A stretch of 64,000 nucleotides of DNA, from positions 18,656,001-18,720,000 of the forward strand of contig CP068257.2 in assembly GCA_009914755.4 (NCBI GenBank), in the 5' to 3' direction. The notes below the pieces were generated by a model, which had not been told where the DNA came from, searched no databases, and saw only the letters and a program-made list of their open reading frames with translations. Origin of the DNA: the human T2T-CHM13v2.0 reference genome, Homo sapiens. Below, in pieces: positions 44,972 through 45,340 of this stretch (position 1 is its first letter; every line of letters starts with the position of its first letter). Position numbers and translations under genes: made by a program.

Positions 44972-45340
44972 ATCTTTAATACTAAGTACTCAATCTTTGC
45001 ATAGTATACAATTTATATCTATACAGGTGCATATATGTATATGTATATGTGTATATGTATATATAGGTGCATATATGTACATATATGCACCTATATATAC
45101 TCAGAAGAACACTTAAGTATAGCAAAATTATCTTTAATACTAAGCACTAGCACATTAAATATCTTTAATACTAAGCACTCAATTCTTTACATAGTATAAA
45201 ATGTATAACTATATAGGTGCATATATGTACATATACATATGTATATATGTATGTATATATGTATATGTATATGTACATATGCATATATATATATGCACCT
45301 ATATATATTCAGAAGAACACTTAAGTATAGCAAAAAATTA
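44972..45340. repeat. Tandemly duplicated ~180-bp unit carrying (TATG/TA)n microsatellites and a perfect 36-bp AT-rich palindrome (45061-45096). The second copy holds an expanded, interrupted ~90-bp quasi-palindrome (45213-45305).
   Basis: Both units start ATCTTTAATACTAAG[T/C]ACTCAAT[C/T]TTTGCATAGTATA[C/A]AAT and end GCACCTATATATA[C/T]TCAGAAGAACACTTAAGTATAGCAAAA. ATATAGGTGCATATATGTACATATATGCACCTATAT equals its own reverse complement. Confidence 0.8.

What the first reader, a model, noticed from the sequence alone, without database searches (positions are those of the whole stretch)
45061..45096. Perfect 36-bp AT-rich palindrome inside a tandemly duplicated, microsatellite-bearing ~180-bp unit. 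The second copy holds an expanded ~90-bp quasi-palindrome.
ATATAGGTGCATATATGTACATATATGCACCTATAT is exactly self-complementary, centred on GTAC. It sits within a unit (ATCTTTAATACTAAG[T/C]ACTCAAT...GCACCTATATATAYTCAGAAGAACACTTAAGTATAGCAAAA) that is duplicated in tandem at 44972-45130 and 45161-45340. In the second copy the arms (AGGTGCATATATGTACATAT ... ATATGCACCT) are separated by expanded (TATG/TATA)n, giving a longer and less perfect inverted repeat. AT-rich palindromes can extrude cruciforms. In humans they are associated with replication stalling, deletion, expansion and translocation hotspots (the PATRR class). The duplication together with microsatellite slippage suggests that this locus is structurally unstable and probably length-polymorphic.
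Basis: seen in the sequence. Interest (0 to 1): 0.55.

Follow-up and report, generated by a model that had tools for sequence, protein, structure and literature searches.

The report
Short palindrome in duplicated AT-rich repeat
A perfect 44-base palindrome really does sit inside an old tandem duplication of an AT-rich microsatellite in a primate (probably human) genome, but it is an ordinary hairpin-prone repeat, probably made by a replication copying error, and is far too short to belong to the translocation-causing PATRR class.

Summary
The perfect palindrome is 44 bp (45057-45100), not 36, and no local dinucleotide shuffle reaches that length (0/2000, max 32). It lies in unit 1 (44968-45125) of a tandem duplication. 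Unit 2 (45157-~45335) carries the same arms split by about 60 bp of (TATATG/TATG/TA)n, giving a 96-bp quasi-palindrome. A 31-bp partial head lies between the units.

The window is primate (Alus, CpG o/e 0.22). The units differ at 7/117 non-microsatellite sites, so the duplication is probably tens of millions of years old. That argues against gross instability.

Head and tail are not inverted repeats, so this is not a foldback or MITE. Rfam gives only sub-threshold hits to microsatellite-hairpin miRNA families.

Calculated cruciform cost is at least 12 kcal/mol, needing sigma of roughly -0.03. By the published human palindrome-catalogue rule it is a 54-bp near-palindrome, a class expected about 1.4 times per 64 kb.

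It fails the PATRR definition: 44 bp and 73% AT, against several hundred bp and over 90% AT.

Best reading: a neutral, structure-prone compound microsatellite whose quasi-palindrome was perfected by a template switch. Polymorphism could not be tested, because no human or ape copies are reachable with these tools. Low interest.

The parts
44968..45125 (.). Tandem unit 1 (158 bp): unique head, extra left arm, short microsatellite, perfect palindrome, unique tail.
   Evidence: (D1, D2)
45020..45039 (.). L1a, TATACAGGTGCATATATGTA. This left arm adjoins the head and is the positional homologue of unit 2's left arm. It is a direct repeat of 45060-45079, 40 bp downstream.
   Evidence: (period 20/40)
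45027..45064 (.). Compound (TATATG/GTGTATAT)n microsatellite between the two left arms of unit 1.
45057..45100 (.). Perfect 44-bp palindrome centred on GTAC (L1b plus R1). It has 22-bp arms, no spacer and 73% AT.
   Evidence: (I14)
45126..45156 (.). Truncated third copy of the head (23 of 31 bp match; it shares the AAGCACT variant with unit 2), followed by an AGCAC micro-duplication.
   Evidence: (D2)
45157..45335 (.). Tandem unit 2 (about 180 bp): the same head and tail, with the arms separated by expanded microsatellite.
45210..45305 (.). 96-bp quasi-palindrome of unit 2. The left arm is at 45210-45229 and the right arm at about 45289-45308. It has 48-nt arms that are 75% complementary and contains two GTAC centres (45227, 45273).
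   Evidence: (I4)
45221..45294 (.). Compound (TATATG/TATG/TA)n microsatellite of unit 2. The longest pure tracts are (TATATG)3.3 and (AT)6.
45014..45293 (.). Inter-unit inverted repeat. Each core is self-complementary, so the two direct copies are also 84-nt inverted repeats of each other (73% complementary, 112-nt spacer). The 391-nt region folds at -56.2 kcal/mol, z = -5.2.
   Evidence: (I1)

Best explanation
This is a neutral, non-coding, structure-prone repeat in an AT-rich (26% GC) stretch of a primate genome. It is not a functional element.

Shown:
- An AT-rich compound microsatellite, (TATATG/TATG/TA)n, is bracketed by an inverted pair of arms, TATATAGGTGCATATAT...ATATATGCACCTATATA.
- The whole roughly 160-bp segment (unique head, core, unique tail) was duplicated in tandem long ago.
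- A further 31-bp partial head duplication lies at the junction.
- The breakpoints show AAAAT(A/T) microhomology.

Inferred history:
- The ancestral unit looked like unit 2: left arm, GTAC, microsatellite, then a small quasi-palindrome (TGTATATGTACATATGCA), then the right arm.
- In unit 1 a short intra-strand (fold-back) template switch during replication copied the right arm as its reverse complement over the adjoining microsatellite.
- That 'corrected' the quasi-palindrome into a perfect 44-mer and left unit 1 with three arms.

Inferred consequences:
- On single-stranded lagging-strand template the 44-mer folds into a 20-bp-stem hairpin.
- In duplex DNA it can extrude a cruciform only under appreciable unconstrained negative supercoiling (sigma of about -0.03 or beyond).
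- The expected effect is a modest local rise in slippage, small indels and further template switches.
- PATRR-type double-strand breaks and translocations are not expected.

The 0.7 confidence applies to the overall reading (an ordinary neutral hairpin-prone repeat, not a PATRR). The template-switch step alone rates about 0.5-0.6.
For: 1. Primate non-coding context: Alu signatures, CpG o/e 0.22, 34% GC; SRP/Alu, U6 and 7SK hits only; no Pfam domain in nearby ORFs.
2. The palindrome exceeds chance. Its hairpin is -16.7 kcal/mol, z = -6.
3. The duplication has diverged heads and tails: 7 substitutions in 117 sites, JC 6.2%. No other copy exists in the window.
4. Arm comparison:
   - The extra arm L1b is identical to the reverse complement of R1 over the full 22 nt, including R1's own 3' flank (GTATATA = rc of TATATAC).
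   - Its direct identity to L1a is only a 15-nt run (20 nt with one mismatch, C/T). The flanks do not match, and the 40-bp 'period' copies are only 29/40 identical. That is too diverged for a simple 40-bp duplication.
   - Unit 2 keeps an 18-bp one-mismatch quasi-palindrome at the homologous GTAC (I9/I17). This is the substrate expected for correction.
5. Template switching is documented to create inverted copies. It affects thousands of human loci, 36% of them in low-complexity sequence or VNTRs (PMC9435742). It is also documented to homogenise and expand inverted-repeat arms (abstracts of PMC8604942 and PMC13100816).
6. Energetics: cruciform cost 12.2 kcal/mol for the 44-mer and about 44-46 kcal/mol for the imperfect longer forms.
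7. Genome-wide frequency: 69,888 near-palindromes over 50 bp. There are 6.6 million short inverted repeats, with long arms enriched in AT-rich low-complexity DNA (PMC5737083).
Against: 1. No outgroup or population sequence could be obtained, so the order of events rests on one paralogue used as a proxy ancestor. Alignment inside a microsatellite is ambiguous.
2. A perfect 22-bp arm pair is not significantly 'young'. The probability of no mismatch if it is as old as the duplication is 0.25. The palindrome could therefore predate the duplication.
3. Neutrality is inferred from context, not from conservation data.
4. The energy figure omits the four-way-junction penalty and uses a simple supercoiling model.
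Confidence: 0.7

Rival explanations
1. History variant. The compact perfect palindrome is ancestral and predates the duplication. Unit 2 later expanded by microsatellite growth or an internal duplication of about 46 bp at the palindrome centre. Unit 1 gained an upstream direct copy of the left arm by slippage.
For: 1. L2 and L1b share 26 contiguous nt, TATATAGGTGCATATATGTACATATA.
2. Both units have GTAC next to a left arm and GTAC next to a right arm.
3. TRF sees a period-46 array in unit 2 and a period-40 array in unit 1.
4. P = 0.25 that a 22-bp arm pair stays perfect for the age of the duplication.
Against: 1. It needs at least two independent insertion or duplication events plus decay, against one template switch.
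2. The 40-bp copies in unit 1 are only 29/40 identical, and their second halves are unrelated.
Confidence: 0.3
2. This is a PATRR-class cruciform-extruding palindrome that makes the locus a hotspot for breakage, deletion, expansion and translocation, and strongly length-polymorphic.
For: 1. It is a perfect spacer-less palindrome with an AT-rich centre clamped by GGTGC/GCACC.
2. The calculated extrusion threshold is sigma of about -0.025 to -0.03.
3. The two direct copies are also inverted repeats of each other (I1, 9).
4. Past slippage is visible between the copies.
Against: 1. It is 44 bp and 73% AT, against several hundred bp and over 90% AT for PATRRs; the shortest named one, PATRR17, is about 200 bp.
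2. The longer forms are only 73-75% complementary and cost about 45 kcal/mol to extrude.
3. The duplication has persisted with about 6% divergence.
4. The pure repeat tracts are short.
5. The size class occurs tens of thousands of times per genome.
6. 70% of catalogued palindromes are invariant in 1000 Genomes.
Confidence: 0.08
3. A microsatellite-derived microRNA-like hairpin gene, of the mir-297 / mir-466 / mir-3149 / mir-4536 / mir-3688 kind, possibly transcribed from both strands.
For: Rfam e-value mode gives full-length alignments to these families on both strands. The best is mir-297 at 58.2 bits over 45031-45101, with 51.8 bits in unit 2.
Against: 1. All hits are far below the curated thresholds (58 vs 90; 46 vs 100; 38 vs 85). 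Nothing appeared in gathering mode.
2. Hits on both strands to many unrelated families are what low-complexity TG/TA palindromes give.
3. The E-values apply to a 331-701-nt search, not to a genome.
4. The perfect hairpin has only a 20-bp stem. From general knowledge, that is short for Drosha processing.
Confidence: 0.03
4. The unit is a copy of a foldback or MITE-like transposable element, or a fragment of a known interspersed repeat, that happens to lie twice in tandem.
For: It has a palindromic core with defined head and tail sequences. The segment size of about 160-190 bp is typical of MITEs.
Against: 1. The head and the reverse-complemented tail are not similar (P = 0.42 and 0.90 against shuffles), so there are no terminal inverted repeats.
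2. No other head or tail copy exists in the 64 kb.
3. The tail 22-mer has no match in the metagenome collection. Its absence from the viral collection says nothing, because an Alu control also found nothing there.
4. The copies are head-to-tail with junction microhomology, which indicates duplication rather than two insertions.
5. No Dfam or RepeatMasker library was available, so the exclusion is incomplete.
Confidence: 0.05
5. Sequencing or assembly artefact.
For: Palindromes and AT-rich microsatellites are hard to sequence.
Against: 1. The same arms recur in a second, diverged copy with different flank substitutions. An artefact would not create that.
2. 44 bp is well within single-read length.
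Confidence: 0.02

Closest known systems
Short inverted repeats / 'cruciform motif' class of non-B DNA (as catalogued in the human COPS palindrome catalogue and in SIR surveys)
   Same: It is a spacer-less perfect inverted repeat with 22-bp arms, lying in AT-rich low-complexity intergenic or intronic DNA. This class is reported to raise local substitution and indel rates and to stall forks (PMC5737083; PMC12887540). By the COPS rule it scores as a 54-bp near-palindrome.
   Different: It is at the long end of the class. It is not a pure (TA)n run, because it has GGTGC/GCACC clamps. It is also embedded in a tandem duplication, so the direct copies are inverted repeats of each other as well.
PATRRs (palindromic AT-rich repeats: PATRR11, 22, 17, 8 and others)
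   Same: It is a palindrome with an AT-rich centre, in principle capable of cruciform extrusion, and it lies in non-coding DNA.
   Different: It is 5 to 13 times shorter: 44 bp against about 200-595 bp. It is 73% AT rather than over 90%. No translocation or polymorphism evidence exists. The longer imperfect versions are only 73-75% complementary.
Template-switch mutations / quasipalindrome correction (Ripley model; Löytynoja's TSM loci)
   Same: A stretch is the exact reverse complement of adjacent sequence where the paralogue has ordinary microsatellite. One event explains a cluster of differences. TSMs are frequent in low-complexity sequence and VNTRs.
   Different: Here the event is inferred from a paralogue rather than from a polarised ancestral/derived allele pair. 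The low-complexity context is exactly what published TSM scans filter out.
Microsatellite-hairpin microRNA families (mir-297, mir-466, mir-3149, mir-4536, mir-3688)
   Same: The sequence type is the same (TG/TA-rich palindromic hairpins), and full-length covariance-model alignments are found on both strands.
   Different: Scores are about 35-65% of the gathering thresholds. There is no evidence of transcription or processing.
AT-rich minisatellites of rare fragile sites (FRA10B, FRA16B). Recalled from general knowledge, not tested.
   Same: AT-rich units of tens of bp with hairpin potential, arranged in tandem (TRF periods 20, 40 and 46).
   Different: There are only about 2-4 imperfect copies here, not kilobase-scale arrays, and there is no evidence of expansion.

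Membership tests
PATRR | Near-perfect palindrome several hundred bp long | tested here: not met
   The palindrome is 44 bp perfect, 54 bp with up to 4 mismatches, and 96 bp at 75% complementarity. Definition from PMC7999016.
PATRR | More than 90% A+T | tested here: not met
   73% AT for the 44-mer, and 74-79% for the longer forms.
PATRR | Recurrent translocation or breakpoint site, with size and symmetry polymorphism in the population | not testable with these tools
   No human or ape assemblies are reachable. The sequence strings are absent from the literature library.
Short inverted repeat / cruciform motif (non-B DNA) | Two reverse-complementary arms (6-10 nt or longer) with a spacer of 0 to a few nt | tested here: met
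   22-nt arms, 100% complementary, 0 spacer (I14). The hairpin is -16.7 kcal/mol, z = -6.
Short inverted repeat / cruciform motif (non-B DNA) | Actual hairpin or cruciform formation in vivo or in supercoiled DNA | not testable with these tools
   Only a calculation is available: a cost of at least 12.2 kcal/mol, and sigma of about -0.025 to -0.03.
Compound microsatellite | Head-to-tail arrays of 2-6-bp motifs | tested here: met
   TRF finds periods 6, 8 and 14 at 45027-45064 and 45221-45308. The pure tracts are short: (AT)6 and (TATATG)3.3.
Tandem duplication / VNTR-like repeat | Adjacent head-to-tail copies of one unit with homologous unique flanks | tested here: met
   Unit 1 and unit 2 are 82-87% identical overall, with a partial third head. 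Copy-number variability was not testable.
Template-switch mutation (TSM) | The derived segment equals the reverse complement of nearby sequence and explains a cluster of differences from the ancestral allele | tested here: inconclusive
   45057-45078 is the reverse complement of 45079-45100 with 0 mismatches, and it matches R1's flank better than L1a's. The only 'ancestor' available is the paralogous unit 2.
mir-297 and related miRNA families (Rfam) | Covariance-model score at or above the curated gathering threshold | tested here: not met
   58.2 vs 90 (mir-297), 46.1 vs 100 (mir-3149), 37.7 vs 85 (mir-466).
Foldback / MITE transposon | Terminal inverted repeats at the unit ends, and dispersed copies | tested here: not met
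   Head vs reverse-complemented tail gives P = 0.42 and 0.90. No other copy exists in the window. No Dfam library was available.

The most novel reading that the evidence does not exclude
The locus is a 'palindrome nursery'. It would be a small, actively evolving site where repeated template switching and slippage inside a duplicated unit are building progressively longer AT-rich palindromes: 18-bp quasi, then 44-bp perfect, then 96-bp quasi, then 84-nt inter-unit inverted repeats. On this reading it is an early stage of PATRR genesis. It would be visibly polymorphic, with several structural alleles, in human long-read pangenomes and different between apes.
Probability: 0.08. Interest if true: 0.4.

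Novelty: new member of a known kind. Interest (0 to 1): 0.13.

Why it matters
It matters little on its own. Short AT-rich palindromes in compound microsatellites are abundant in primate genomes, with tens of thousands of this size in the human genome. Their hairpin potential and modest mutagenicity are well described.

The locus is a tidy textbook example. One copy of a duplicated quasi-palindrome may have been 'perfected' by template switching while the other expanded. Duplicating a palindrome also automatically creates nested direct and inverted repeats.

If long-read population data showed several structural alleles, it could serve as a small natural model for how longer PATRR-like palindromes arise. 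Without such data there is no reason to expect disease-relevant instability.

Tried and rejected
1. External copies of the locus:
   - The tail 22-mer gave 0 hits in the metagenome collection and the viral collection.
   - The head 23-mer gave 0 hits in the viral collection.
   - The arm 20-mer gave 6 metagenome, 2 bacterial-genome and 1 viral hit. All are chance matches with no flanking similarity.
   - PLSDB megablast of 44000-46500 gave no match.
   - Control: an Alu 23-mer also finds nothing in the viral collection, so that negative is uninformative about human DNA.
2. Reaching human-derived contigs through spurious ORFs. A 540-aa concatenation of eleven ORFs flanking the locus found no protein at E <= 0.001. 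The look-up of encoding contigs was therefore not attempted.
3. Literature search for the exact sequence strings gave 0 papers.
4. Whole-unit palindrome / foldback-MITE idea. It is rejected because head and tail are not complementary.
5. miRNA membership is rejected on Rfam thresholds.
6. Simple 40-bp tandem duplication as the origin of the third arm. It is disfavoured because the second halves of the copies are unrelated.
7. Locus identification through coding content. Pfam found nothing in three ORFs, and the genomic locus remains unidentified.
8. The PATRR primary review PMC3378763 is not held in the library.

Full report
**Context.** The window carries several Alu signatures, has CpG o/e of 0.22 and is 34% GC. 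Rfam at gathering thresholds finds only an SRP/Alu match, a U6-like copy and a 7SK-like copy. The finding lies in the most AT-rich 2 kb of the window (26% GC). No coding signal is nearby.

**Observation.** The reported 36-mer is exactly self-complementary. The perfect palindrome is in fact 44 bp, 45057-45100: GTATATATAGGTGCATATATGT|ACATATATGCACCTATATATAC.
- TA-rich microsatellites are intrinsically self-complementary, so I tested against dinucleotide-preserving shuffles of the local sequence.
- 0 of 2000 shuffles of the 92-bp core and 0 of 1000 shuffles of both units reach 44 bp (maxima 32 and 30). Whole-window shuffles reach 26 bp at most.
- The GGTGC/GCACC blocks are not microsatellite sequence, which is what makes this a true inverted repeat.
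- As single-stranded DNA the 44-mer folds into a 20-bp stem with a 4-nt loop at -16.7 kcal/mol, z = -6.0.

**Anatomy.** Unit 1 (44968-45125, 158 bp) and unit 2 (45157-~45335) are head-to-tail copies.
- The unique heads are 89% identical and the unique tails 97%.
- The 31 bp between them (45126-45156) is a truncated third copy of the head. It shares the AAGCACT variant with unit 2 and ends in an AGCAC micro-duplication.
- Breakpoints share AAAAT(A/T) microhomology, and a further 12-bp echo of the head start (ATATCTTT) lies just upstream. The segment has therefore undergone several slippage or microhomology events.
- Unit 1 contains three arms: L1a (45020-45039), L1b (45060-45079) and R1 (45079-45098). 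Unit 2 contains one left arm (45210-45229) and one right arm (about 45289-45308).
- Unit 2's arms are separated by about 60 bp of (TATATG/TATG/TA)n. This forms a 96-bp quasi-palindrome with 48-nt arms, 75% complementary (I4), folding at -26.7 kcal/mol, z = -4.1.
- Each core is self-complementary, so the two direct copies are also 84-nt inverted repeats of each other (73% complementary, 112-nt spacer; I1). The whole 391-nt region folds at -56.2 kcal/mol, z = -5.2.
- No other copy of head or tail exists in the 64 kb.

**What it is not.**
- *Not a foldback or MITE.* Head and reverse-complemented tail are not similar (P = 0.42 and 0.90 against shuffles). The unit is therefore not a decayed long palindrome either.
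- *Not a known miRNA family member.* Rfam e-value mode aligns the cores on both strands to mir-297 (58.2 bits), mir-3149, mir-466, mir-4536 and mir-3688, families that themselves derive from TG/TA hairpins. Every score is far below its gathering threshold (85-100 bits for these families), and the E-values refer to a search of a few hundred bases.
- *Not an artefact.* The arms recur in a second, independently diverged copy.

**Age and stability.**
- Outside the microsatellite the units differ by 7 substitutions in 117 aligned sites: 6.0%, 95% CI 2.4-12.3%, JC 6.2%.
- At 1e-9 per site per year, an assumed neutral rate, that is about 31 My (range 12-62 My). Gene conversion between the units would make the duplication older still.
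- The duplicated, palindrome-bearing structure has therefore survived a long time.
- The longest uninterrupted tracts are only (AT)6 and (TATATG)3.3. From general microsatellite knowledge, these are short for high slippage rates.
- The perfection of the 22-bp arms is not by itself evidence of youth. The probability of no mismatch is 0.25 if the arms are as old as the duplication.

**Energetics.**
- With ViennaRNA DNA parameters, two hairpins (-33.4 kcal/mol) against the 44-bp duplex (-45.6 kcal/mol) give an extrusion cost of 12.2 kcal/mol. This is a lower bound, because no junction term is included.
- With the standard supercoiling free energy (about 1100RT/N) this needs unconstrained sigma of about -0.025 to -0.03.
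- The imperfect 81-bp and 96-bp forms cost 44-46 kcal/mol and need sigma of about -0.04 to -0.06.
- Cruciform extrusion of the 44-mer is therefore thermodynamically possible under transcription- or replication-generated supercoiling. Hairpin formation on single-stranded lagging-strand template is the more likely structure (inference; mechanisms reviewed in PMC7999016, and PMC12887540).

**Origin of the perfect palindrome.** I compared the five arms in register.
- L1b is identical to the reverse complement of R1 over the full 22 nt, including R1's own 3' flank.
- L1b's direct identity to L1a is a 15-nt run (20 nt with one mismatch), and the flanks do not match. The two 40-bp 'period' copies are only 29/40 identical.
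- Unit 2 retains an 18-bp one-mismatch quasi-palindrome, TGTATATGTACATATGCA, at the homologous GTAC next to its right arm.
- The most economical history is a unit-2-like ancestor in which one fold-back template switch in unit 1 copied the right arm in reverse complement over the adjoining microsatellite. This is Ripley-type quasipalindrome correction.
- Such events are documented at thousands of human loci, many of them in low-complexity DNA and VNTRs (PMC9435742). They are also known to homogenise and extend inverted-repeat arms (abstracts).
- The rival is a compact palindrome that predates the duplication, with centre expansion in unit 2 and an arm duplication in unit 1. It is not excluded, and I give it about 0.3.

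**Comparison with known classes.**
- By the rule used for the human palindrome catalogue COPS (8-bp perfect centre, up to 4 mismatches), the locus scores as a 54-bp near-palindrome, plus a 46-bp one in unit 2. The only other one of 40 bp or more in the window is a (TA)n run.
- COPS reports 182,437 palindromes over 40 bp and 69,888 over 50 bp in the human genome (PMC7680136). That is about 3.8 and 1.4 per 64 kb, so finding one here is expected.
- A separate survey counts 6.6 million short inverted repeats, with long arms concentrated in AT-rich low-complexity DNA (PMC5737083).
- PATRRs are near-perfect palindromes of several hundred bp with over 90% AT; PATRR17 at about 200 bp is the shortest named (PMC7999016). 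This element fails both tested criteria, at 44 bp and 73% AT. It works like a short inverted repeat and is not a PATRR.

**What could not be done.** The decisive test is length and structure across human haplotypes and ape orthologues.
- Pattern scans of the metagenome, bacterial-genome and viral collections, and a PLSDB search, returned nothing or only chance 20-mer matches.
- An Alu control shows that the viral collection holds no human DNA.
- A protein search with eleven concatenated flanking ORFs, aimed at human-derived contigs, found nothing.
- The exact sequences appear in no paper in the library.

**Verdict.** PATRR membership and marked instability are not supported. The locus is an ordinary new member of a well-known kind, with a neat but unproven template-switch history. 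Interest is 0.13.

Noticed in passing
window 61035-61139 (-) and 61940-62183 (+): A U6 snRNA-like copy (57 bits, threshold 44) and a 7SK-like copy (77 bits; 244 nt aligned to a 331-nt model, so internally deleted) lie within 1 kb of each other. They are probably retro-pseudogenes.
   Followed up: no
window 5676-5714: A pure (TA)19 tract, 38-39 bp and perfectly self-complementary. It is 48 bp by the COPS rule. As an uninterrupted AT dinucleotide run it is arguably more slippage- and cruciform-prone than the reported palindrome.
   Followed up: no
window 30277-30294: A perfect 18-bp palindrome, ATTAATTACGTAATTAAT, with a retained central CpG in a strongly CpG-depleted window. It looks like paired TAATTA homeodomain-type half-sites, but this is unverified.
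   Followed up: partly
window 13638-13653: A GC-rich perfect 16-bp palindrome, CATGCGTGCACGCATG, containing two CpGs.
   Followed up: no
window 34204-34355 and 23455-23522: Two further compound TA/TG-type microsatellites. The first holds a 34-bp near-palindrome at 34277-34310. The second is (TA)12(CA)8(CATA)n. Neither has the GGTGC/GCACC arms.
   Followed up: partly
window 44958-44977: Just upstream of unit 1 the head start is echoed, ATATCTTTCTAAA|ATATCTTTAATAC, with a period of about 12. This is a fourth, minimal trace of slippage at the head sequence.
   Followed up: partly
window 27427-27726 (-): A 99-aa ORF whose translation (…KCKLVQPLW…FLKKFKIEQPYDPAIPVLGIY…) resembles, from memory, the C-terminal part of LINE-1 ORF2p. 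Pfam gave no hit.
   Followed up: partly
L002 150-260 and L007 6170-6282 (metagenome Ga0209755): The two chance-hit contigs from one metagenome share about 40 nt around CCAGTGCAGGTGCATATATGTACATAT with each other, with similar flanks. They look like two copies of a eukaryotic repeat in that sample and are unrelated to the window locus.
   Followed up: no
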